DNA of 64,000 bases from the NCBI GenBank assembly GCA_036651955.1, contig JAVVWU010000002.1, positions 6,459-70,458 of the forward strand. The letters run 5' to 3'. Under the pieces are notes generated by a model. That model had not been told where the DNA came from, ran no database searches, and saw only the letters and a program-made list of their open reading frames with translations. Source of the DNA: Kiritimatiellia bacterium (GTDB lineage Bacteria; Verrucomicrobiota; Kiritimatiellia; RFP12; DVOR01). The position numbers and the translations under genes are program-made. Positions 6,888-23,760 of this stretch are shown one piece after another. The first letter of the stretch is position 1, and the number at the start of each line of letters is the position of its first letter.

Positions 6888-7813
6888 AGGCTCGTTTTGT
6901 CCATTGCATTGAAGAAATTCCCTCCGATGCTGTACTTGCCATCGGGACGTTTGACGGAGTGCATACGGGACATCGCCTCATTCTCAATGCCGCGCTTGAT
7001 TTTGCTCGCCGAACAGGACGTGATGCGTGGGTGCTGACCTTTCATCAACATCCACTTTCTATTCTTGCACCGGAGCGTGCGCCACGTTCGATTTGTTCGC
7101 AGGAAGAGACGCTTGAGCAGTTGTTAGCGATGGGCTTCGTCAATCTTGCAACGGTTGATTTTACGCTTGAGCTTGCGGCAATTTCGCCTGAACAGTTCGC
7201 CGATTGTTTCCAACATGCCGTTCTTTTTTGCGGAGAGGATTGGCGGTTTGGTAAATGTGCGCAAGGGTCACCCGAATTGTTACGGGCGCATGGTGTGGAT
7301 GTGCGCGTTCAACCGTATGCGGAATACGCCGGTGTACGCGTGAGTAGTTCACGCATTCGTGATGCAATTACCGCAGGAATGTTTTCAGATGTTGCGGCAA
7401 TGCTTAGGCGTCCATGGAGATATCAAGGAACCGTGGTTCATGGGCGTGGCCTTGCGCGAAAGATGTTTGGCGTGCCAACAGCAAATGTTCTTTTTGACAC
7501 GACACGCGTTGCTCCTGCGCGAGGTGTCTATCGGGCGAAGGTTTCGGTGGAGCGGATTGGAACGTTGGACGCGTTAGTGAATTTTGGTATTGCGCCGAGT
7601 ATTAAAGGAGAGGCTTCGCCACTTTTAGAGGCGCATCTTTTAGCGTATGAGGGTGATCTTTATCAGAAGCAACTCTCTTTTTCGTTCGAGCATGATCTTC
7701 TTCGTCCCGAGCGAACGTTTAGTTCCGTGGAGATGCTTAAAGCGCAGATTTTGTCCGATTTAGCAAACGTGCAGGGCGGTTACAATGAGCACTTTCTTGA
7801 GGAGATCAAATGA
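6857..7813 (+). CDS. ribF: Bifunctional riboflavin kinase / FMN adenylyltransferase. A GTG start at 6884 overlapping the truB stop is more likely than the TTG at 6857.
   Basis: GTFDGVHTGH motif. C-terminal riboflavin kinase domain. Confidence 0.85.
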   Translation: MCSVSFWKVVKARFVHCIEEIPSDAVLAIGTFDGVHTGHRLILNAALDFARRTGRDAWVLTFHQHPLSILAPERAPRSICSQEETLEQLLAMGFVNLATVDFTLELAAISPEQFADCFQHAVLFCGEDWRFGKCAQGSPELLRAHGVDVRVQPYAEYAGVRVSSSRIRDAITAGMFSDVAAMLRRPWRYQGTVVHGRGLARKMFGVPTANVLFDTTRVAPARGVYRAKVSVERIGTLDALVNFGIAPSIKGEASPLLEAHLLAYEGDLYQKQLSFSFEHDLLRPERTFSSVEMLKAQILSDLANVQGGYNEHFLEEIK

Positions 7814-8616
7814 AAACAATTCCGACCGATTTTAATTCACCCATTGAGAAGTTGCGTTGGGTGTTGAAAGCGTTGCGTGCTCCCGATGGATGTCCGTGGG
7901 ATCGCGAACAAACACTTGCCTCTATTCAGCCTTGTTTGCAAGAGGAATGCTATGAGTTGCTTTCGGCAATGGTGGGAGAAGATCTTGAGAATCATCGGGA
8001 AGAATTAGGCGATGTGCTGTTACAAGTACTCTTCCAAAGCGATATCCGCGAAGACGCGGGGCAGTTTTGTTTTGATGACGTTGTCAAAACGTTGACGGAG
8101 AAGCTGATTCGTCGTCACCCTCACGTGTTTGGCGATGGCAAGGCTGCCGATACGGATGCGGTGCTTCGGAATTGGGAACGGATTAAGCAGACGGAACATA
8201 CCACGCCGAAGACTTCAGCGTTGGAGGGTGTACCGGCGGCGCTCCCCGCATTATTGAAAGCGCAACGCGTGCAACATAAGGCGGCGAAGGTGGGATTTGA
8301 CTGGAAAGATGCCGAAGGGCCTTTGGCGAAACTGGATGAAGAAATCGCAGAGTTGCGCACGGCAATCAAAGACGGAGATGCCGAGGCGATTGCGGATGAG
8401 TTTGGTGATGTCCTCTTTTCGTTTGTCAATGTAGCGCGTCACCTTCAAATTGATGCTGAAAGTACGTTGAGAGTGGCTACGGAAAAGTTTTCAAAACGCT
8501 TCCGCGCAGTTGAAGCAAAGGTGAAAAGTTCGGGACGCATGATGACGGCTTTATCTTTACCCGAATTGGATCGCGTGTGGGATGAAGTCAAGCAGGAACA
8601 GAATACTTTGCGTTGA
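7810..8616 (+). CDS. mazG: Nucleoside triphosphate pyrophosphohydrolase MazG
   Basis: Tandem MazG EEXXE..D motifs. ATGA overlap with ribF. Confidence 0.85.
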   Translation: MKTIPTDFNSPIEKLRWVLKALRAPDGCPWDREQTLASIQPCLQEECYELLSAMVGEDLENHREELGDVLLQVLFQSDIREDAGQFCFDDVVKTLTEKLIRRHPHVFGDGKAADTDAVLRNWERIKQTEHTTPKTSALEGVPAALPALLKAQRVQHKAAKVGFDWKDAEGPLAKLDEEIAELRTAIKDGDAEAIADEFGDVLFSFVNVARHLQIDAESTLRVATEKFSKRFRAVEAKVKSSGRMMTALSLPELDRVWDEVKQEQNTLR

Positions 8617-8641
8617 ACGTGGCGAAGAGAGGCGAATCCAT

Positions 8642-9538
8642 ATGGAGCAAGGCACAATTAAGAAACAGAATGAATCGGTAACGGTGCCCTTGTGTACGTC
8701 CTTTGTCGGATTGGATAGTGATGGTTGTGTCGTTGATACGATGGCTGCGAAACAACATGGATTTCTTCAACCGATGTTGGTGAAAAGCTTCGGACTCGAA
8801 GCGATGGCGGATGTTTATTGTGCGTGCGCAGATTTCGTTAATCTCTATTCGGTCACGCGTGGCATTACGCGGTTTAAGTCGATGCTCTTGAACTTTGAAT
8901 GTTTCAATCGTCATCCTGCTGTCATTGCGGCGGATTTTCCTCGGCTTCCGACGGAAGCTTTGCGCGCATTTACGGAGAGTGGACTTCCGATGGGTGATGC
9001 GGCACTTGTGCAATGGCTTGAGACGCACCGTTCGTCATCACTTGAGAAGCTGTTGGAATGGAGCCGTGCGGTCAACCGTGCCATTTTAGACTCGGGTGTA
9101 ACGTTCCCTGCTTATGAAGGCGCACGAGAAGCATTAAAACGGATGTGGAAACGCAGTGATACGGGCGTTGTCTCGCAATCGCCCGAACGTGTGTTGGAGC
9201 AAGATTGGGGATCGCAGCAATTATTACCTTACGTTGGGCAGATTGCGGGGCAGGAGTTAGGCGATAAGGTTCACCAATTAACCGTATTGACCGAGGGAAA
9301 GTATTTGCGTGAACGCGTATTGATGATTGGTGATGCGCCCGGAGATTTGGCAGCGGCGAAGGCGTTTGGTTGTCGTTTCTATCCGATTCTTCCCGGACGT
9401 GAAGAGGCGTCGTGGGCGCGATTCAATGAAACCATTTATGATGCTTTTTATGAAGAACGTTATACGTATGAACAGGAGGCAATTTGCGTTGCCGAGTTTG
9501 AGCGCGTTCTTCCCTCTGTTCCACCATGGGAACAGTGA
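8642..9538 (+). CDS. HAD-superfamily hydrolase
   Basis: Motif I VGLDSDGCVVDT and motif IV MIGDAPGD. Start taken at the ATG with RBS after the mazG stop. Confidence 0.6.
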   Translation: MEQGTIKKQNESVTVPLCTSFVGLDSDGCVVDTMAAKQHGFLQPMLVKSFGLEAMADVYCACADFVNLYSVTRGITRFKSMLLNFECFNRHPAVIAADFPRLPTEALRAFTESGLPMGDAALVQWLETHRSSSLEKLLEWSRAVNRAILDSGVTFPAYEGAREALKRMWKRSDTGVVSQSPERVLEQDWGSQQLLPYVGQIAGQELGDKVHQLTVLTEGKYLRERVLMIGDAPGDLAAAKAFGCRFYPILPGREEASWARFNETIYDAFYEERYTYEQEAICVAEFERVLPSVPPWEQ

Positions 9539-9602
9539 AATGAGCAGCGTGCAGAAAATAGAAGTGTGCGAACTTCCGATGCTATGAATGAGAGGTGTGG
9601 CG

Positions 9603-10658
9603 ATGTCTTTATTGGCTCAAAAACCGGCGTATAATTTTTGCGCAGGACCTTCTATGATTGCTCCTTCAATCTTGGAGGCGGTACGGGCGGATTTAACCGA
9701 TTGGGATGGACTTGGACGAACGGTGTTGGAACTATCACACCGCACGCCGGACTATGCCGAACTCCATGCACATGTGATTGCCAACCTTCATCAGCTCTTA
9801 GGTGTAGGAGATGAGGTGACGATTTTATTGCTTCAAGGCGGAGCCTCGGGGCAGTTCGCAATGTTGCCGTATAACTTTTTACGAGAAGGTGCGGCGGCAG
9901 ATTATCTCGTGCGTGGTTATTGGGGTGAACGTGCCTCACAGCAGGCCGCTCGCGTAGGATGTGTGCGGACGCTTTCGCAACCTGAGGGATGGAATGCCGA
10001 TGCCGTGTATGCTCACGTGACAACGAATGAAACGATTGCCGGAACGTGTCTCCCCGAAGCCGCCTTTGTTCCTCCCATGCCTCTTTGCGCAGATATGTCG
10101 TCGGATATTTTATCGAGACCGCGCGACTACTCGCGTTATGCACTCTTCTATGCGGGCGCACAAAAGAATTTAGGTGTTGCCGGATTAGCAGTCGTTGTCG
10201 CGCAAAAGGAATTTCTTTCCAATGCTCGTCGCAATCTTCCTGCAGCATTTTGTTATCTTGAACATGCGAAAGCGGCAGGACTGTATCACACGCCGAATGT
10301 GTTTGCGGTGGATGTCCTTTCACACGTCACCGATGCGCTTCTGACCGAAGGGCTTCCGAACGTTTTTGCTCGCAATGCGCGAAAGGCAAAGAAGCTGTAT
10401 GATGAACTTGATCGTTCAGACTTTTGGCGTCCACTCGCACCCGTTGCGGAGCGTTCGATAACCAATGTTACCTTCCGTTTGCCGACGGTTGAACTCGAAG
10501 ATCAATTTTTGCAAGGCGCAGAAGCCGAAAGCCTTTTTGCCTTGCGTGGACATCGTGCGCTTGGGGGCATTCGTGCGTCCCTCTATAATGCTTTCCCTGA
10601 AGAAGGGGTAGACGCATTGATTACATTCATGAGACAATTCGAAAAGAGTAATGGATAA
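9603..10658 (+). CDS. serC: Phosphoserine aminotransferase
   Basis: Class-V aminotransferase (SerC) architecture. GAGAGGTG RBS. Confidence 0.88.
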   Translation: MSLLAQKPAYNFCAGPSMIAPSILEAVRADLTDWDGLGRTVLELSHRTPDYAELHAHVIANLHQLLGVGDEVTILLLQGGASGQFAMLPYNFLREGAAADYLVRGYWGERASQQAARVGCVRTLSQPEGWNADAVYAHVTTNETIAGTCLPEAAFVPPMPLCADMSSDILSRPRDYSRYALFYAGAQKNLGVAGLAVVVAQKEFLSNARRNLPAAFCYLEHAKAAGLYHTPNVFAVDVLSHVTDALLTEGLPNVFARNARKAKKLYDELDRSDFWRPLAPVAERSITNVTFRLPTVELEDQFLQGAEAESLFALRGHRALGGIRASLYNAFPEEGVDALITFMRQFEKSNG

Positions 10659-10672
10659 TCAAGGAGTATTTT

Positions 10673-10921
10673 ATGGCAATTGAAACTGAAGTTTACAGTG
10701 ATGGTATTTATCAAATTCATTTGATTGAGAATATGATTCGTTTGGACTTTATGCGCCTTCAGCCAAGTCCTGAAAGTAAAACTCCTGTACCTAAACCATT
10801 TGAACGCGTCATTCTCAATCCACAAGGTTTCTTACGTACCTATGAGGCCATGGGACAAATCGTTGCAAAGCTTGAAGAAATGGGATTGGTTCATCGGAAC
10901 AATCCGCCGCCACAAGCCTAA
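10673..10921 (+). CDS. Small hypothetical protein (82 aa)
   Basis: Strong AAGGAG RBS 8 nt upstream. No recognisable domain. Confidence 0.45.
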   Translation: MAIETEVYSDGIYQIHLIENMIRLDFMRLQPSPESKTPVPKPFERVILNPQGFLRTYEAMGQIVAKLEEMGLVHRNNPPPQA

Positions 10922-11094
10922 GTCCTAATCGCTTCTCTTTATTTTACAACGTTATACGTTAATAGGCTCTGCCACATAGGTAGCGCACTTATTTCGATTG
11001 GTACTTATTTTCTGCCGTGAGGGAGACCGGTCGGTCGTCCTCTTTTTGTGCGCGTAGCTCAAATACGAGATGCAGCGTTGCTCCCAATGAGTCT

Positions 11095-11345
11095 GGACTT
11101 ACTCTGCATTAGTCCACATCGGCAGTCGGAAATGAAACACTACTTATGCAAAATGGCACAGTTGTGGCACGGTTGCTTTGAAGCCGCGCCTCACTGAGGT
11201 GAAAGTCTTACCTCAGTGAGGTAGACCTCGCACCTCATTGACCCTGACCTCGTACCTCAATGAGGTACGCAATCGAATCTTTTGGAATATCTCTTGAAAT
11301 CTGTGTGGCGTATGACTAAAGCTCTGAAAATGAATGCATAAGGTT
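11095..11345. repeat. Conserved intergenic module, copy A. It contains a TGGCAC direct repeat, two tandem hairpins, a conserved 3' box and TGCATAAGT motifs.
   Basis: About 200 bp is alignable to 23556-23755 at roughly three-quarters identity by eye. Confidence 0.65.
11154..11169 (+). promoter_or_regulatory. Sigma-54-like -24/-12 element TGGCACagttgTGGCA (GG-N10-GC spacing)
   Basis: Exact -24 TGGCAC. The -12 reads TGGCA rather than TTGCA. Copy B has 1 nt less spacing. Confidence 0.3.
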
Positions 11346-11490
11346 GCTCGCTCGGACAGCAGTTACCGGAATGTGCGGAGTGGCTCATTCTTTCTTATGA
11401 GGACTATTATCTGCGTCTAATTTCTTGCATAAGTGTTGTTGTAAGATCTCAATCCTATTTCATTTGACCTTTTTATAAAAGTTCCTTTAC

Positions 11491-11517
11491 CTCATAATAG
11501 CCTCTTCCTATTATGAG
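11491..11517. promoter_or_regulatory. Perfect 10-bp inverted repeat CTCATAATAG-N7-CTATTATGAG upstream of the DegT locus
   Basis: Seen directly. No T-tract on either strand, so operator-like rather than a terminator. Confidence 0.4.
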
Positions 11518-11659
11518 CGATGGTCTTACTCTCGCCGCGTAATCGATTGACAAAGGCTCTAAATCTGAAGCTGGATTGCTTTGATGGCTCGGATTTCGTA
11601 TCATTAGCGCTACAACTTAATTTTATAGCGAAGAGCGCCCCTGTTGAGGGTACCTTATT

Positions 11660-12805
11660 TTGAAAGTAGGGATACGAGTGAAAAAATTTGAAACGCCGAT
11701 ACTTGTTACGCGTCCATGGCTTCCTCCATTGGAGGAGTTCTCACAGGGACTAGCTGAAATCTGGAAGAATCAATGGCTGACAAATAATGGGCCGGTATTG
11801 GAACGTTTCCAAGCGGCACTCGCGCAACAGTTGGGATTGAGTACGAGGAATTTGTCGTTATTTGCAAATGGGACTTTAGCACTTGAGTTGATGTTTCAAA
11901 CGTTAGGGCTTGCCGGAGCAGAAGTTGTTACGACACCTTTTACATTTGTTGCAACCAGTCATGCGTTACGCCGGATCGGTGCAATTCCTGTATTTGCAGA
12001 TGTCGATCCGGAAACGCTATGCCTTTCACCTGAAGCGGCTGAACGAATGATTACGTCACGTACCAAGGCAATTGTTCCTGTACACGTCTACGGACATCCT
12101 TGCGATATCGATGGTTTTGCGCGATTGGGAGAAAAGTACGGGCTGAAAATCGTTTATGATGCGGCTCACTCATTTGGTGTTACGCTTGATGGCGCTTCAA
12201 TTGCGACTTATGGCGATGCGTCTATGTTTAGTTTCCATTCCACAAAACTCTTTCATAGTATTGAAGGCGGGTTGCTAACTTTTCGAGATGCAACAATTCA
12301 AGGTGGATTAGAGTGTTTGCGCAATTTCGCGATTACTTCTGAAACGACGTGTGATGCGATTGGCACGAATGCCAAAATGAACGAATTTGCTGCACTTATG
12401 GGCTGTTGTGGGCTTCGTCAATTGCCCGATCTGATTGCTCATCGCAAGGCGATTTAGGAGATTTACGCTCAAGCATTTGAAGGAACGCCAGTGAAATTGT
12501 TGGCGCGTCCAACGCATATGGCGCGGCATACGGTTGGACACAACTATGCTTACTGCCCTGTACTTCTTCCTGATTTTGAAATGCGAGAGCGCGTTTATGC
12601 GCGATTGAAAGCGTTTAATGTCTTTACACGTCGCTACTTTTACCCTCTGCTTTCGGCATTTGCTCCCTATCAAGATACGCGTGGAAATACGCCCATTGCC
12701 AAAAAAGCAGCTGATTGTGTCTTAACGCTTCCAACCTATCATGGGCTTGCCCTTGAAGATGTTCGTGTCATTGCTCAAAACGTTGTAGAGCTTGTTCAAT
12801 GTTGA
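11660..12805 (+). pseudogene. DegT/DnrJ/EryC1 (ArnB/PglE-like) sugar aminotransferase interrupted by an in-frame TAG at 12455-12457
   Basis: The two ORFs 11660-12457 and 12491-12805 are in the same frame. Conceptual read-through gives ...HRKAI*EIYAQAF..HNYAYCPVLL, a contiguous DegT sequence. Confidence 0.7.
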
Positions 12806-13620
12806 AACGTCTTATTATTGTTGGTGCTAGCGGTATGGGGCGTGAAGTCGCGTCTTATGCAAAAGAGGCTTTGCCGACACTTTCAATCGCAGGATTCTTG
12901 GATGATCGATCTGATTTATTGAACTCCTTTGATGGATTACCGCCCATCCTTGGATCTGTCGAAGCGTGTCATCCGCAAAAGAACGATTACTATCTTGTGG
13001 CTGTAGGTGATGCAGAAGCGCGTGCGCATTATGTTGATTGTCTTATGGTTCGTGGGGCGCATTTTGCAACGCTTATTCATCCGACTGCGTTTGTCGCGTC
13101 ATCAGCAACGCTGGGAGAAGGATGTATTATTTGCCCACAAAGTGCGGTTTCTACAAACGTTCTAATGGGGCGGCATACAATCCTCAATTTAGGTGCATCG
13201 GTAAGTCATGATTGTGAAGTGGCAGATTTTTGTACGCTCTCTCCGGGCGCTCGACTTACAGGCGCCTGTCATTTAGGACAAGGCTGTTTTCTTGGGGTGA
13301 ACGCGTCGCTGATTCCGAAGATTCATTTGTCCGCGTACACGAGTGTGGGTGCAGGGGCTGTTGTAATCCACGCCGTTCCAGAATGTCATACAACGCTTGC
13401 AGGCGTTCCGGCGCACGAGATTTCTCGTGGGGGGGGGTGGAATTCGTGGCAAAATCTCCATCAAAAAGAATGTAATTGCATAAAGTTTACGTCTTCTGTC
13501 AGATTACAAAGAGATTCTAAACAACACATTTATTTTGATACAAAGCGTACTTTCTCTAAGAGGGAAAGTACGCCGTCATTTTTACGATTATACAGTTCAT
13601 CAATTATGAAGGTAAGTTAA
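12799..13620 (+). CDS. NeuD/PglD-family sugar N-acetyltransferase (hexapeptide repeat). The last ~60 aa are likely an artefact of the poly-G tract at 13431-13439; the -1 frame ends at 13481.
   Basis: MLKRLIIVGASGMGRE N-terminus with left-handed beta-helix repeats. The ORF runs through an intrinsic terminator. Confidence 0.7.
   Translation: MLKRLIIVGASGMGREVASYAKEALPTLSIAGFLDDRSDLLNSFDGLPPILGSVEACHPQKNDYYLVAVGDAEARAHYVDCLMVRGAHFATLIHPTAFVASSATLGEGCIICPQSAVSTNVLMGRHTILNLGASVSHDCEVADFCTLSPGARLTGACHLGQGCFLGVNASLIPKIHLSAYTSVGAGAVVIHAVPECHTTLAGVPAHEISRGGGWNSWQNLHQKECNCIKFTSSVRLQRDSKQHIYFDTKRTFSKRESTPSFLRLYSSSIMKVS
13545..13584 (+). terminator. Rho-independent terminator (10-bp stem gcgtactttc/gaaagtacgc, then a T-run)
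   Basis: Seen directly. It lies inside the annotated 3' extension of ORF 12799-13620. Confidence 0.6.
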
Positions 13621-13621
13621 A

Positions 13622-14254
13622 ATGCGGAAATCGGTTTATATTATCGGTGCGCGTGGATTTGGTCGTGAGTGTGCGAATAATCTTCAAATGGATCAGCGGT
13701 TCAGAGAAAATTATGAACTGAAAGGATTCTTAGATGACAAAGCAGATGCACTCAATGGATTTGATAATTATCCTCCGATAGTTTCCTCGGTAGAGGACTT
13801 TATCCCACGGGAAAACGATGTCTTTGTCTGCGGACTTGGCAAAAATGAATATCGTAAGAAGTACATTGAAATAATGTTAAGTAAAAAGGCATATTTCCAA
13901 ACGTTCATTCATCCGACTGCAATTATTCATCCAACAGCAGTTCTTGGAGTTGGTGTTCTTGTTGGGGCAATGACAACTGTAAGTGCAGATGTAAAGGTCG
14001 GAGATTTTACACTTATCCACCCATACAACTGTTTAGGTCATGATACTGTTTTAGAACGGTTTTGCGTGAGTGAATGCTTTAGCTTCTTTGGCGGATTCTC
14101 ATTTGTGGGTGAAGGTGCAACGATTCATACGCGTGCAACAATTCTTCCACATATAAAGGTAGGTCGTGGAGCCGTCGTTGGGGCAGGAAGTGTTGTTCTT
14201 CGCTCTGTATCTGAAGGTACAACCGTTTTTGGTAATCCAGCGATTAGATTTTAA
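13622..14254 (+). CDS. NeuD/PglD-family sugar N-acetyltransferase, paralog B, in a low-GC block
   Basis: MRKSVYIIGARGFGRE N-terminus with hexapeptide repeats. Visibly AT-richer than its neighbours. Confidence 0.8.
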   Translation: MRKSVYIIGARGFGRECANNLQMDQRFRENYELKGFLDDKADALNGFDNYPPIVSSVEDFIPRENDVFVCGLGKNEYRKKYIEIMLSKKAYFQTFIHPTAIIHPTAVLGVGVLVGAMTTVSADVKVGDFTLIHPYNCLGHDTVLERFCVSECFSFFGGFSFVGEGATIHTRATILPHIKVGRGAVVGAGSVVLRSVSEGTTVFGNPAIRF

Positions 14255-14273
14255 GTGTATCGCTTGTGACGTA

Positions 14274-15257
14274 TCACGATTGTGCAGGCATTCTGTTGTG
14301 CCAGATTTTGGGGTGGGCTGGGAGGTTGGTAGGGGCGTAGCCGGGGAGTTGTTCGTGCATGGTTGGAACGGATGGGTGAAGCAGATCTGTCGTTGCAATG
14401 GTACGTGCCGCGTGTGGCAAAAGCTTCCATGGTCCGGTGAGGGAATCGTGTAGAACATATGAGATTTTTTGGCTCATCGGCTTACTTTCACTGGGTGCAT
14501 GATCTACGAATAAAAGCCCATGTTCGCGTGCGCGATCGCACATCCATGCAAGTGTAGTTTCGGGAAGTCCACGCCCACTATAGCCGCCACCAATGTCTGT
14601 ATGGGAACCGGCAAACCAAACTTCGGTTACGCGTGAGTCTGAAATAAAACGGGTAGGAGAGAATGCGTTGCGGCATTCGTCGATGGCGAGTGCGTGGTAG
14701 GCGGCATTGACGCAAGCCGGTAAAGTTTGAATGCCAAAATCTTCGGTGAAGGTCGTTTGTACCGTGTCCCATACGCCGAGCATCTCAATGGGGACGTTCT
14801 TGTACCCATGTTGAGTAGAGAGGCTTTTTGCCAGCGCTACATCGTGACTTCTAAAGGCTTTTATCGCAAGTTGTTCACTCTCTTTCATCGGCGGAATACC
14901 ACAGAAGTCAATGAGACTTGCTAACCATCGTGCCGCAAAAGCACCTCGGCTGAATCCGAAAATATAGAGACGCGGTGTTAATCCTTTATCAAAAGCATGC
15001 GCGCAATCGCGTTGTGCTGTACGATAGGCTTCAATGACACGGCTTTCTAAGTTTACACCGGCAACACTTCCGGGAATGAATTCATCGGGACGTGTGCCAA
15101 TGCCGGCTTCATAATGTGTGATTTGAGCTGTTACGTCTAGCACGGATACCCACCGTTGCAATCGGGCAACATTTCCCCACTGTTCTTTTATTTTCGCTTG
15201 ATCAATATCCATGTCGGTGCCATCAATGGTAAGAACGATATTAAAGAATTTAGGCAT
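14274..15257 (-). CDS. DUF2235 alpha/beta hydrolase (T6SS Tle1-like phospholipase domain)
   Basis: N-terminal IDGTDMD, a GFSRGA nucleophile elbow and WFAGSHTDIGGGY. AAGGAG RBS. Confidence 0.75.
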   Translation of the reverse strand: MPKFFNIVLTIDGTDMDIDQAKIKEQWGNVARLQRWVSVLDVTAQITHYEAGIGTRPDEFIPGSVAGVNLESRVIEAYRTAQRDCAHAFDKGLTPRLYIFGFSRGAFAARWLASLIDFCGIPPMKESEQLAIKAFRSHDVALAKSLSTQHGYKNVPIEMLGVWDTVQTTFTEDFGIQTLPACVNAAYHALAIDECRNAFSPTRFISDSRVTEVWFAGSHTDIGGGYSGRGLPETTLAWMCDRAREHGLLFVDHAPSESKPMSQKISYVLHDSLTGPWKLLPHAARTIATTDLLHPSVPTMHEQLPGYAPTNLPAHPKIWHNRMPAQS

Positions 15258-15281
15258 GGTCTCTTCTCCTTATTTTATACT

Positions 15282-15629
15282 TTAATCTTCGGGCATTTCG
15301 GGGCCTGTTGTGGAGTCTGGGATTGCCCACCATTCCACTTCTACGGGAGAATAAAGCCCCAGGCTGAGTACGGTAAGTAAGGCATCAAGGTAAGTTGTCC
15401 GATAATGAACTTTGGTAAGTCCGCCGACCGAACTCTTTGAGGCTTTCCAATCGCTGTTCCATGGATAAGTCCGCCATAGCGTCCCTTGATAATATTCGAC
15501 TTGATGTTCGCCACCGTCGGGGCCAAAGGCTTCAACTGGGACAGACATTTTACACCCATCTAAGAAAACCATTGCAGTGATTAAAGAACCACTGAATATT
15601 ATCCTAACAACTAACGAACGAATGCGCAT
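15282..15629 (-). CDS. Bor/Iss-family outer-membrane lipoprotein
   Basis: Signal peptide with an LDGC lipobox. LSLGLYSPVEVEWW resembles lambda Bor GFITLGIYTPLEARVYC. TAAGGAGG RBS. Confidence 0.6.
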   Translation of the reverse strand: MRIRSLVVRIIFSGSLITAMVFLDGCKMSVPVEAFGPDGGEHQVEYYQGTLWRTYPWNSDWKASKSSVGGLTKVHYRTTYLDALLTVLSLGLYSPVEVEWWAIPDSTTGPEMPED

Positions 15630-16096
15630 ATCGCCTCCTTACTTACGTAGGGAGTTTAGCATAAAAGCTTTGTGAGATATTCTGACGTGTCGTGAAAAGA
15701 GTGGATTGCAGTTGTGGCTTGATGCCATTACGTCGTTTGGCTTACTTTTGAATTTCTCTTTTCTAACGATTTGTAACGGCTTTTTCTTCACATTGATTGA
15801 GTGGCTGTGCTAAGATGAACCGAACGAATGAAAGCTTTGAATAATGATTTACGGAATCGCGCACGAAATATTGATGATGCCCGTTAAACCTTGTCTTTTT
15901 AAGGACGAGTTTGAGACGGTGTGCGTTCTTTTTGCTAAAGCTTCCAAAAGTAACTTCATCCTAAAAAAATACCGTAATACCACAGTGGACTCCCTGTGGA
16001 GACTAAAGGGGGCTGCGCTTTTTTCAATGCGTATTCTCAACGGATTTGAGCGGGTTTGTCTCGGCAACGAGGAAAACAAGAAAAGGGGGCATTAAG

Positions 16097-17038
16097 ATGC
16101 TTTCAATTTATCAATGGGTCAATGGAAGTTTGCGTGAAGTTGTTACTCCCGATGGCCCTTGTTGGATCAATCTTGCAGACCCTTCCACAGAAGAAATTCT
16201 CCGCGTTCAGACGCTTACAGGTGTTTCGCGAGAGTTCATCTCCGATCCACTCGACCGAGATGAACGTCCTCGTTTGGATGTGGATGATGACGGAACAGTT
16301 CTTATTGTTGTGCATGTGCCGTATCATGAACCGAATGAGAATCTTCATCCCTTTAATACGCTTCCGTTGGGCGTGGTACATACGTCGAATGCGGTGATTA
16401 CGGTGTGCAATCGCCCGACGCCGATCGCGGCTTCCTTTCTGGATCAAATTCGGCGTGTCTGTCCACCTGAACAGAAGTTCCGTTTTACATTTCATCTTCT
16501 TTGGCATGCTGCCATTCTTTATTTGCGCTATTTGCGTGATATTCGTCAACGTGCTGATATGGTTGAACAAGAACTCCATGAATCGATCTCTAATGAAGGT
16601 CTCATGCGGTTACTGAATATTGAAAAGTCTCTCGTTTACTTCACGACCTCGCTTAAAGCGGATGATATTCTTCTTGGACGTATCCGTACCACGCGCCAAC
16701 TTAACATTGATGAAGATGACATTGACGTGTTGGAGGACGTGCGGATTGAATATCAACAGGCACTTGAAATGGCGAGCATTCACAGCAATATTTTGACTGG
16801 AACGTTGGATGCTTTTGCCTCTATTATTTCCAACAATCTGAATAATGTCATGAAGTTCTTGACCTCGATGACGATTGTGCTGATGGTTCCGTCGCTGATT
16901 GCCTCCATTTACGGGATGAATACTAAATTGCCCTTTGCAAGTGAAGTTAGCACGACGGGGTTCTTTACTATTATGGGACTTTCCGCCCTTCTTGTTCTCC
17001 TGACGATTCTATTCTTTGCTAAACGTAAATTCTTCTAA
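16097..17038 (+). CDS. corA: CorA-family Mg2+/Co2+ transporter
   Basis: YGMN motif ahead of two C-terminal TM helices. AAAAGGGGG RBS. Confidence 0.85.
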   Translation: MLSIYQWVNGSLREVVTPDGPCWINLADPSTEEILRVQTLTGVSREFISDPLDRDERPRLDVDDDGTVLIVVHVPYHEPNENLHPFNTLPLGVVHTSNAVITVCNRPTPIAASFLDQIRRVCPPEQKFRFTFHLLWHAAILYLRYLRDIRQRADMVEQELHESISNEGLMRLLNIEKSLVYFTTSLKADDILLGRIRTTRQLNIDEDDIDVLEDVRIEYQQALEMASIHSNILTGTLDAFASIISNNLNNVMKFLTSMTIVLMVPSLIASIYGMNTKLPFASEVSTTGFFTIMGLSALLVLLTILFFAKRKFF

Positions 17039-23499: not shown

Positions 23500-23760
23500 C
23501 TGCTTATGCACGGACTCTATTCTGCATAAGTCCACATAAGAGGTCATAACAAAAGCAGCACTTATGCAAAGTGGCACAGTCTGGCACGGTAATGAAGATG
23601 CGGCGGCCTCAGTGAGGTAAGCCCTCTACCTCACTGAGGTACGAGGTCAGGGTCAGTGAGGTACGAGCTCTACCTCATTGAGGTGCGCGACGAAACGTTT
23701 TGGAATATCTCTTGGAATCTGCGAGGAATAGTACTAAAGCTTGGAAAATGAATGGAATGG
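23500..23760. repeat. Conserved intergenic module, copy B
   Basis: Alignable to copy A. Hairpins at 23607-23639 and 23653-23681. Confidence 0.65.

What the first reader, a model, noticed from the sequence alone, without database searches (positions are those of the whole stretch)
13431..13439. Poly-G(9) tract at the junction of a glycan acetyltransferase gene and a low-GC insert, with an ORF reading through a terminator
Nine consecutive G lie near the 3' end of acetyltransferase A (NeuD/PglD-like). In the annotated frame the ORF continues for ~60 low-complexity residues, straight through a clean intrinsic terminator at 13545-13584, up to the next gene. In the -1 frame it would stop at 13479-13481 with a natural C-terminus ...GVPAHEISRGGGGIRGKISIKKNVIA. 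Homopolymeric G tracts in surface polysaccharide genes are classical slipped-strand phase-variation switches. This could equally be a homopolymer sequencing error. Either way the ORF as called is probably wrong.
Basis: partly seen in the sequence, partly recalled or inferred. Interest (0 to 1): 0.55.

Follow-up and report, generated by a model that had tools for sequence, protein, structure and literature searches.

The report
Variable poly-G tract ending an acetyltransferase gene
A run of nine G's at the tail end of a sugar-acetyltransferase gene in an uncultured Kiritimatiellia bacterium is 8, 9 or 10 G long in near-identical strains, so it is a genuine mutational hot spot. It cannot switch the enzyme off, because it only changes where translation stops, and that may control the next gene.

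Summary
The tract is real: G9 at window 13429-13437, 2 nt upstream of the stated coordinates, and the only G/C run of 7 or more in 64 kb. It is not a one-off error. G9 recurs in two other assemblies, while near-identical (at least 98.4%, mostly >99%) Kiritimatiellia contigs carry G8 (two samples) or G10 (one). Four of six NCBI MAG assemblies break inside the tract or within 30 nt of it.

The tract lies after the conserved NeuD/PglB/VioB acetyltransferase fold (aa 4-205; tract = aa 211-213), so no length truncates the enzyme. G8 gives 227 aa, G10 gives 225 aa, and G9 gives 273 aa. The 60-residue G9 tail has no homologue, scores as non-coding and is predicted disordered.

Only in the G9 frame do ribosomes run through a strong hairpin plus T5 (13545-13583). 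They then stop at TAA 13618-20, one base before the ATG of a second, low-GC acetyltransferase (13622-14254).

Best reading: a hypermutable repeat giving "C-terminal phase variation". I infer, but have not shown, a polar or coupling effect on the downstream gene, as suspected for C. jejuni cj0045/cj0044. A neutral hot spot remains a serious rival. This is a new member of a known kind, of moderate interest.

The parts
11660..12805 (+). DegT/DnrJ/EryC1-type sugar aminotransferase, first gene of the three-gene cassette. In this window only, it is interrupted by an in-frame TAG at 12455-12457.
   Evidence: Pfam PF01041 on both halves. The gene is intact at 375 aa in L001 and L004-L006. Base 12457 is G here and T (TAT, Tyr) in six other strains. 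Its stop, 12803-12805, overlaps the ATG of gene A at 12799.
12799..13428 (+). Acetyltransferase A, the conserved part (aa 1-210): PglD_N domain plus left-handed beta-helix. It is complete before the tract.
   Evidence: TIGR03570, 197.9 bits, aa 4-205. Solved homologues VioB 7txp, PglB-ATD 4m98, PerB 4ea7 and PglD 3bss align up to about aa 204-211, and the closest of them (VioB, PglB-ATD, PerB, PglD) end 2-16 residues after their alignment. H137 and D138 are invariant in 36 homologues. pLDDT is above 90 for aa 1-210.
13429..13437 (+). Poly-G tract, G9 here (codes Gly211-213). It is length-polymorphic (8, 9, 10) in near-identical genomes.
13438..13620 (+). AT-rich spacer (32% GC). It is translated only in the G9 frame, as a 60-residue tail. 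It contains the stops of the other two frames: TAA 13473-13475 for G10/G7 and TAA 13481-13483 for G8/G11.
   Evidence: frames; coding score -0.12 per codon, below 99.8% of in-frame gene windows; pLDDT below 55; no homologue covers it; probability that this frame stays open by chance is 1.8%, and 6.8% for any frame.
13545..13583 (+). Intrinsic-terminator-like hairpin: a 13-bp stem at 13545-13573, the spacer CGTCA, then T5 at 13579-13583.
   Evidence: among the six most stable hairpin-plus-T-run sites in the window.
13608..13612 (+). Shine-Dalgarno-like GAAGG, 9 nt upstream of the ATG of gene B.
   Evidence: Read directly from the sequence.
13622..14254 (+). Acetyltransferase B, a second NeuD/PglB/VioB-like gene (210 aa). 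It is full length, low in GC and probably horizontally acquired. It starts 1 nt after the G9-frame stop (TAA-A-ATG).
   Evidence: TIGR03570, 159.3 bits; homologues of 50-61% identity and about 207-225 aa (mostly 211-212), including Bacteroides, Oscillospiraceae and Dysgonomonas; 35% identical to A; lowest GC and GC3.

Best explanation
The G tract is a genuine hypermutable simple-sequence repeat, changed by slipped-strand mispairing. It sits at the extreme 3' end of a VioB/PglD-type sugar N-acetyltransferase gene in an uncultured Kiritimatiellia species.

Shown: its length differs (8, 9, 10) among genomes that are otherwise at least 98.4% (mostly >99%) identical. At least two independent changes occurred, on two SNP backgrounds. 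Assemblies repeatedly break at the tract.

Shown: the tract does not truncate the enzyme. All frames keep the full catalytic fold, and only the point where translation of gene A ends is changed.

Inferred: the biologically relevant output is therefore not 'A on/off' but what happens downstream.
- With G8 or G10, ribosomes stop 62-70 nt before a strong hairpin plus T5. That element can then act as the operon's terminator, leaving the promoter-less, horizontally acquired acetyltransferase B poorly expressed.
- With G9, DegT, A and B form one uninterrupted chain of translation (ATGTTGA overlap, then TAA-A-ATG). Ribosomes melt or occlude the hairpin and deliver themselves to B's start. Meanwhile A acquires a 60-residue disordered, non-coding-like tail that may lower its stability.

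The result would be a heritable, reversible choice between 'A only' and 'A-with-tail plus B', that is, between alternative N-acylations of the amino sugar made by the upstream aminotransferase.
For: Tract census in near-identical contigs:
- G9: the window, L002 (GCA_036653435.1) and L003 (SRR25820367); L010 (SRR25820366) begins with at least 9 G.
- G8: L007 (GCA_036649275.1) and L011 (SRR25820368).
- G10: L001 and L008 (GCA_036658455.1).

Contig breaks and graph signatures:
- L004, L005 and L006 end inside the tract, and L001 ends 16 nt after it.
- L004 ends on the 8th G. L007 starts 55 nt earlier and reads G8-T, which is the de Bruijn branch node expected when G8 and longer alleles coexist.
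- L010 starts exactly at the first G.

SNP backgrounds: haplotype I carries G9 and G10; haplotype II carries G9 and G8.

Background indel rate: in 62.7 kb of pairwise alignment, the only other 1-nt indels are one intergenic and one in a CorA gene.

The domain is complete before the tract. The tail is non-coding-like and disordered.

The G9 frame stays open for 61 codons in 32%-GC DNA, which happens in 1.8% of shuffles. Its stop abuts B's ATG, and B has a GAAGG Shine-Dalgarno-like sequence.

Hairpin: -18.7 kcal/mol, z = -3.8. No sigma-70-like promoter lies between the tract and B.

B is a compositional outlier, and its relatives elsewhere are the sole acetyltransferase after a DegT gene.

Precedents: C-terminal phase variation in Helicobacter canadensis (PMC2823697). 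In C. jejuni, cj0045 has a 3'-end tract whose long frame overlaps the start of cj0044, with a suspected effect on cj0044 (PMC8355987). For siaD, a frameshift is coupled to transcription termination (Lavitola 1999, cited in PMC3025981).
Against: - No reads were available. Within-sample heterogeneity is inferred only from where contigs end, and Illumina or PCR stutter at G9 could contribute to that.
- The between-sample differences need only two mutational events. They show elevated mutability, not rapid reversible switching.
- The T-run starts 5 nt after the main stem and has only five T, so terminator efficiency is uncertain.
- The long open frame (1.8% for that frame, 6.8% for any frame) was noticed post hoc.
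- All available relatives are at least 98.4% (mostly >99%) identical, so conservation says nothing about the spacer. More distant orthologues of A and B are not syntenic.
- Promoter types other than sigma-70 were not scanned, so B may have its own promoter.
- Only one such tract occurs in 64 kb, so there is no evidence of a genome-wide repertoire of contingency loci.
- The window's own aminotransferase carries a nonsense codon, which fits locus decay as well as it fits switching.
Confidence: 0.45

Rival explanations
1. Neutral mutational hot spot. The tract is truly unstable, but because it lies after the catalytic fold its length has no selected consequence. The three tails and any effect on B are by-products, and the open G9 frame is chance.
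For: The domain is complete before the tract. The tail looks non-coding and disordered. In 6.8% of shuffles, at least one of the three frames stays open to B. G9 by composition alone occurs in 10% of shuffles. All three lengths persist in natural populations with no sign that one is purged.
Against: - The long frame ends exactly at a stop-start junction of the kind this genome uses for coupled genes (the DegT/A overlap; TAA-A-ATG).
- A strong hairpin lies between A and a promoter-less B.
- G/C runs are otherwise strongly avoided in this window (none longer than 6), so a neutral G9 in coding DNA would be expected to decay.
Confidence: 0.3
2. Locus decay. The aminotransferase/acetyltransferase cassette is being lost in this lineage. 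G9 is simply a frameshift lesion alongside the nonsense codon in the aminotransferase, and the cassette is deleted or replaced in some strains.
For: An in-frame TAG at 12455-12457 is unique to the window. L024 diverges completely from window 11267 onward and lacks the cassette at this position. L023 joins 10992 to 13978, a possible 3-kb deletion.
Against: G9 occurs in strains whose aminotransferase is intact (L002 and L003 have TAT at 12455-12457). The frameshift removes nothing from the conserved fold. Gene A otherwise has very few differences between strains, and gene B is intact in every contig.
Confidence: 0.12
3. Sequencing or assembly artefact. The true length is the same everywhere, and 8/9/10 are consensus errors at a difficult poly-G.
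For: All data come from one short-read project. Poly-G is error-prone on Illumina chemistry. Contigs end at the tract, which also happens when read quality collapses there.
Against: - Two assemblers (NCBI MAG contigs and Logan per-run contigs) give concordant lengths on the same haplotypes (G9: L002/L003).
- Lengths track SNP lineages.
- Other homopolymers (A7, G6) show no variation. Only two other 1-nt indels occur in 62.7 kb.
Confidence: 0.08
4. RNA-level recoding. Transcriptional slippage or ribosomal frameshifting on the G run makes all tails from any genotype, so the DNA length is irrelevant.
For: Long homopolymers can cause RNA polymerase slippage (general knowledge). The tract is 9 nt long.
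Against: Known productive slippage sites are A or T runs. There is no stimulatory structure immediately 3' of the tract (the hairpin lies 108 nt away). The DNA itself varies.
Confidence: 0.03

Closest known systems
C-terminal phase variation by 3'-end homopolymeric tracts (Helicobacter canadensis; Snyder et al. 2010, PMC2823697)
   Same: A poly-G tract in the last part of the CDS. Every frame still makes most of the protein, and only the C-terminal sequence and length change. Several of the genes are in sugar or glycan metabolism. One case merges with the next CDS.
   Different: A different phylum (Kiritimatiellota, uncultured). Only a single tract is seen. One frame adds 60 residues of non-coding-like sequence through a terminator hairpin, rather than changing a few residues.
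Campylobacter jejuni cj0045 poly-C tract with a suspected polar or coupling effect on cj0044 (Kim et al. 2012, as reviewed in PMC8355987)
   Same: A tract at the 3' end that barely changes the protein. The long frame reaches the start codon of the downstream gene, and the proposed effect is on translation or transcription of that gene.
   Different: Here the long frame abuts the downstream ATG (TAA-A-ATG) rather than overlapping it. A hairpin plus T-run lies inside the extension. The effect is untested in both systems.
Neisseria meningitidis siaD poly-C phase variation with Rho-dependent intracistronic termination (Lavitola et al. 1999, cited in PMC3025981)
   Same: A frameshift at a homopolymer uncouples translation from transcription, which causes transcription termination.
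   Different: In siaD the tract is early in the gene and switches the enzyme itself. Termination there is Rho-dependent, whereas here the candidate is an intrinsic terminator and the target is the next gene.
Phase-variable glycan acetyltransferases (E. coli K1 neuO, Neisseria pglI and oatC, H. influenzae oafA; from general knowledge, not tested here)
   Same: A repeat-mediated switch in a surface-glycan acetylation gene.
   Different: Those tracts interrupt the coding region and give true ON/OFF states. Most belong to other acetyltransferase families. Here the catalytic domain is untouched.
VioB / PglD / PerB N-acetyltransferases (PDB 7txp, 3bss, 4ea7)
   Same: Same fold and the same invariant His-Asp. 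The gene directly follows a DegT-type aminotransferase.
   Different: The substrate is unknown. The gene carries a hypervariable 3' tract and is followed by a second paralogue.

Membership tests
SSR contingency (phase-variable) locus | A homopolymer long enough to be hypermutable (G/C of 7-8 or more) | tested here: met
   G9 at 13429-13437.
SSR contingency (phase-variable) locus | Tract length differs among otherwise near-identical genomes or within populations | tested here: met
   G8, G9 and G10 occur in contigs at least 98.4% (mostly >99%) identical. There are two SNP backgrounds, each with two lengths. Contigs break at the tract. Read-level counts were not available.
SSR contingency (phase-variable) locus | A length change switches the gene product between full-length (ON) and truncated (OFF) | tested here: not met
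   All frames keep aa 1-210, the whole conserved fold.
SSR contingency (phase-variable) locus | High-frequency, reversible switching with a phenotype in a clonal population | not testable with these tools
   The organism is uncultured and no reads or phenotypes are available.
C-terminal phase variation (Snyder 2010) | The tract lies in the final part of the CDS, so frames differ only in C-terminal sequence and length | tested here: met
   The tract codes aa 211-213. The products are 225, 227 and 273 aa.
Polar/coupling phase variation (cj0045/cj0044 type) | One frame extends to the start codon of the downstream gene | tested here: met
   The G9 frame stops at 13618-13620 and B's ATG is at 13622.
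Polar/coupling phase variation (cj0045/cj0044 type) | Downstream gene expression depends on tract length | not testable with these tools
   This needs RNA or reporter data.
Intrinsic (Rho-independent) terminator | A stable G+C-containing stem-loop | tested here: met
   13 bp, 6 G-C pairs, -18.7 kcal/mol, z = -3.8.
Intrinsic (Rho-independent) terminator | A U-tract immediately after the stem | tested here: inconclusive
   T5 begins 5 nt after the main stem. The MFE structure adds a 4-bp outer helix that brings the stem end next to the T-run. Other terminator-like sites in the window have the T-run directly adjacent.
NeuD/PglB/VioB sugar acetyltransferase (TIGR03570) | Profile score above the curated cutoff over the full model | tested here: met
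   A: 197.9 bits against 160.8, model positions 1-201 of 202. B: 159.3 bits, just under the cutoff.
NeuD/PglB/VioB sugar acetyltransferase (TIGR03570) | Conserved His-Asp in the beta-helix and the N-terminal PglD_N domain | tested here: met
   H137 and D138 are invariant in 36 sequences. PF17836 hits both A and B.

The most novel reading that the evidence does not exclude
The poly-G tract is a heritable, reversible 'ribosome-delivery' switch. Only the G9 (3n) length lets ribosomes translate through an intrinsic terminator and reinitiate on a horizontally acquired second acetyltransferase. Tract length would then toggle transcriptional read-through and translational coupling of the downstream gene rather than the gene that carries the tract. 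This would also be the first SSR contingency locus described in the Kiritimatiellota/PVC lineage.
Probability: 0.2. Interest if true: 0.6.

Novelty: new member of a known kind. Interest (0 to 1): 0.4.

Why it matters
Repeat-mediated phase variation is documented almost entirely in cultured pathogens such as Campylobacter, Helicobacter, Neisseria and Haemophilus. Here natural populations of an uncultured Kiritimatiellia show the same signature at a glycan-modification gene, recovered purely from public assemblies. I found no paper linking Kiritimatiellia with phase variation.

The case also illustrates that a 3'-end tract should be judged by what it does to translation termination and to the next gene, not by ON/OFF logic. 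The A-tract-hairpin-B arrangement is compact enough to test directly with reporters.

Practically, it flags a 273-aa database protein (MEG1787687.1 and MEG1934112.1) whose last 60 residues are probably translated spacer. It also shows why MAG contigs of this species break at this site.

Tried and rejected
- A scan of GTDB species genomes with protein A, and exact-DNA scans of genome contigs and JGI metagenome contigs with the 24-nt left flank, found nothing. All relatives therefore came from exact-protein look-ups.
- More distant orthologues of A (P0002 and P0003, 50-52% identity) and of B (P0130 and P0132, about 60%) are not syntenic. They have one acetyltransferase only and no tract, so they cannot say which tail is ancestral or whether the spacer is conserved.
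- Rfam found nothing at E of 1 or below in 10500-16200, so the hairpin region is not a known RNA.
- The sigma-70 promoter scan found no site between the tract and B. This is weak negative evidence only.
- Literature searches for the run and assembly accessions and for Kiritimatiellia plus phase variation returned nothing, so the sample's environment remains unknown. A gut origin is only suggested by B's relatives.
- An A-B fusion protein (like the 430-aa double-domain P0008) is rejected, because A's G9 frame and B are in different frames and are separated by a stop.
- A G-quadruplex is rejected, because a single G run has no partner runs.
- Pyrrolysine or read-through of the aminotransferase TAG is rejected, because six other strains have TAT there.

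Full report
**Observation.**
- The window contains GGGGGGGGG at 13429-13437, preceded by CGT and followed by TGG. The finding's coordinates (13431-13439) are 2 nt too high.
- It is the only G or C run of 7 or more in 64 kb; the next longest are four G6 runs.
- Composition alone does not make it significant, because 10 of 100 dinucleotide-preserving shuffles contain a G9 or C9.
- The ORF carrying it, 12799-13620 (273 aa), is a NeuD/PglB/VioB-family sugar acetyltransferase. It scores 197.9 bits on TIGR03570 against a cutoff of 160.8, with Pfam PglD_N and Hexapep hits.
The frame continues for 60 residues through a 13-bp hairpin at 13545-13573, followed by CGTCA and T5 (-18.7 kcal/mol, z = -3.8). 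It stops at TAA 13618-13620, one base before the ATG of the next gene (13622).
- With 8 G the frame stops at TAA 13481-13483 (227 aa...GGGGIRGKISIKKNVIA). With 10 G it stops at TAA 13473-13475 (225 aa...GGGVEFVAKSPSKRM).

**Who carries it.**
- The 273-aa product is an exact database entry, 'MAG: acetyltransferase [Kiritimatiellia bacterium]'. It is present in two NCBI MAGs and one Logan run assembly. Its 90% cluster contains four further 'partial' proteins of 212, 212, 213 and 218 aa.
- Fetching the contigs and aligning them to the window gives this census in DNA that is 98.4-100% identical to the window:

| Tract state | Contigs |
|---|---|
| G9 | window; L002 (GCA_036653435.1); L003 (SRR25820367) |
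| at least G9 | L010 (SRR25820366; the contig begins exactly at the first G) |
| G8 | L007 (GCA_036649275.1); L011 (SRR25820368) |
| G10 | L001 and L008 (GCA_036658455.1) |
| unresolved | GCA_036659595.1 (L005 ends after 5 G, L009 starts at the last G); GCA_036655095.1 (L006 ends after 5 G) |

- Four of six NCBI MAG assemblies therefore break inside the tract or within 30 nt of it.
- In GCA_036649275.1 the break has the exact form expected of a de Bruijn fork between G8 and longer alleles. L004 ends on the 8th G, and L007 begins 55 nt earlier and continues G8-T.

**Is the variation more than background?**
- Across 62.7 kb of pairwise alignments, the tract accounts for four of the six 1-nt indels found. 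The other two are one intergenic C and one T in a CorA gene of L008.
- No other homopolymer (A7, G6) varies.
- SNPs in gene A define two backgrounds. Haplotype I (T,T,T,A at 12987/13002/13035/13179) carries G9 (window) and G10 (L001). Haplotype II (C,C,C,G) carries G9 (L002, L003) and G8 (L004/L007, L011).
- At least two independent length changes have therefore occurred among genomes that differ by about 1.6% or less (mostly <1%).
- NCBI and Logan assemblies, made by different assemblers, agree on G9 where their SNP haplotypes match (L002/L003). L006 and L011 share the 13391 T variant, but L006 stops inside the tract, so it cannot confirm L011's G8.
- I conclude that the tract is a real mutational hot spot and that the window's G9 is not a private sequencing error.
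- Still missing are read-level counts. The contig-end evidence for within-sample heterogeneity could be inflated by Illumina or PCR stutter.

**What the tract can and cannot do.**
- The family profile is matched end to end on aa 4-205.
- The solved relatives VioB (7txp, 217 aa), Neisseria PglB acetyltransferase domain (4m98), PerB (4ea7) and PglD (3bss) all end 2-16 residues after the GVPA motif.
- In an alignment of 36 homologues, most end 3-15 residues after that motif and none covers the G9 extension.
- AlphaFold gives pLDDT above 90 for aa 1-210 and below 55 from aa 211 on.
- The 60-codon tail scores -0.12 per codon on the window's own codon usage, lower than 99.8% of in-frame 60-codon windows from real genes.
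- So no tract length truncates the enzyme. This is not a classical ON/OFF switch of acetyltransferase A, and the long tail is translated spacer rather than evolved protein.

**Surroundings.**
- Upstream, a DegT/DnrJ/EryC1 aminotransferase (11660-12805) overlaps A's start (ATGTTGA), which is the usual arrangement for this pathway.
- Downstream lies B (13622-14254), a second NeuD-like acetyltransferase 35% identical to A. It is full length. Its best relatives (50-61% identity, about 207-225 aa, mostly 211-212) include Bacteroides, Oscillospiraceae and Dysgonomonas.
- B has the lowest GC (0.412) and GC3 (0.294) of the 52 ORFs of 200 aa or more in the window, so the 'low-GC insert' is real.
- B is wedged between the hairpin plus T5 and the 3' end of a convergent Tle1-like gene (14274-15257, minus strand).
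- B has a GAAGG 9 nt before its ATG, and no sigma-70-like promoter lies between the tract and its start.
- The simplest history is this: DegT-A-terminator was the original operon, and B was added behind the terminator.

**Mechanism proposed.**
- The only thing the tract changes is where A's ribosomes stop.
- With G8 or G10 they stop 62-70 nt before the hairpin, which can then form. B would then depend on whatever read-through escapes.
- With G9 (3n), translation is continuous from DegT through A, over the hairpin, to a TAA that abuts B's ATG. This is the geometry of translational coupling, and of ribosome-mediated suppression of an intrinsic terminator.
- The G9 frame staying open for 61 codons in 32%-GC DNA occurs in 1.8% of shuffles (6.8% for any frame). 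That is suggestive but post hoc.
- I therefore rate the polar or coupling switch for B as the most likely functional reading, with about 0.2-0.25 for that specific mechanism. I give 0.45 to the broader statement that this is a selected C-terminal/polar phase-variable site.
- A neutral hot spot follows at 0.3. Locus decay (0.12), artefact (0.08) and RNA-level recoding (0.03) trail behind.

**Comparison with known systems.**
- 'C-terminal phase variation' was defined for eight Helicobacter canadensis genes with 3'-end poly-G tracts, several of them sugar-metabolism genes and one merging with the next CDS (PMC2823697).
- C. jejuni cj0045 has a 3'-end tract that hardly alters the protein. Its long frame overlaps the cj0044 start codon, and an effect on cj0044 translation or transcription is suspected but unproven (PMC8355987).
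- Frameshift-coupled transcription termination is established for meningococcal siaD, where it is Rho-dependent (Lavitola 1999, cited in PMC3025981).
- The present case meets the structural criteria of the first two. It fails the ON/OFF criterion of classical translational phase variation.
- It differs in three ways: the phylum (I found no paper linking Kiritimatiellia and phase variation), an intrinsic-terminator-like hairpin inside the extension, and a xenologous paralogue as the downstream target.
- I file it as a new member of a known kind.

**Other things seen.**
- The window's aminotransferase has an in-frame TAG (12455-12457) that is TAT in six other strains.
- A 240-nt element occurs upstream of the cassette (about 11085-11325) and again upstream of a DnaE-like gene (about 23505-23755). 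It contains an array of TACCTCAnTGAGGTA palindromes at 22-nt spacing.
- One strain (L024) diverges completely from the window inside that array and lacks the cassette there. One contig (L023) joins 10992 to 13978.
- Together these suggest that the cassette lies in a structurally variable region. I did not resolve this.

**Verdict.**
- Interest is moderate at 0.4. A specialist would recognise the pattern, but the taxon and the terminator/coupling geometry make it a clean, testable example.

Noticed in passing
window 12455-12457: There is an in-frame TAG in the DegT-type aminotransferase, which splits it into ORFs 11660-12457 and 12491-12805. Six other strains have TAT (Tyr) at this codon and an intact 375-aa gene. 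It is either a real nonsense mutation that knocks out the first enzyme of the cassette in this strain, or a consensus error.
   Followed up: partly
window ~11085-11325 and ~23505-23755: A ~240-nt intergenic element is present twice (76% identity), upstream of the DegT/A/B cassette and upstream of a 1250-aa DnaE-like ORF. It contains the conserved blocks CTGCATnAGTCCACAT and ACTTATGCAAArTGGCACAGT..TGGCACGGT. It also holds an array of 15-bp palindromes TACCTCAnTGAGGTA at 22-nt period (10 hits against 0.14 expected). There is no Rfam match. Several MAG contigs end in it.
   Followed up: partly
L024 2017-3842 (GCA_036661915.1) versus window 11267 onward: This strain is 98.9% identical to the window up to the palindrome array and then diverges completely. 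It carries extra palindrome units, an inverted copy of the TGCATAAGTCCACA block and unrelated ORFs in place of the aminotransferase/acetyltransferase cassette. The repeated element looks like a junction of structural variation.
   Followed up: partly
L023 3820-3896 (GCA_036653435.1 contig 44): The contig matches window 7173-10992, and its last 77 nt match window 13978-14054 (inside gene B) at 100%. This is either a ~3-kb deletion variant removing the element, DegT, A and half of B, or a chimeric contig end. The same assembly also has the intact A(G9)-B contig L002.
   Followed up: no
L008 (GCA_036658455.1), window position 16921: A one-base deletion in the CorA-family gene shortens the called product from 313 to 274 aa in that MAG. 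It is the only other coding 1-nt indel seen among the compared strains.
   Followed up: no
L013 2125-3945 and L014 1834-3654: In a distant relative, a DarT / Macro-domain (DarTG-like toxin-antitoxin) pair sits between the DegT aminotransferase and the NeuD-like acetyltransferase P0003.
   Followed up: no
window 14274-15629 (minus strand): A Tle1-like phospholipase domain protein (327 aa, PF09994) is followed by a small Bor-like lipoprotein. They are convergent with gene B, only 20 nt separate the two stop codons, and no type VI secretion genes were seen in the part of the window examined (about 9.5-30 kb).
   Followed up: no
window 10971-11647: The intergenic region upstream of the cassette is the most divergent stretch between the window and L001, holding 27 of the 47 differences (3 kb compared). 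Gene A itself has none apart from the tract length.
   Followed up: no
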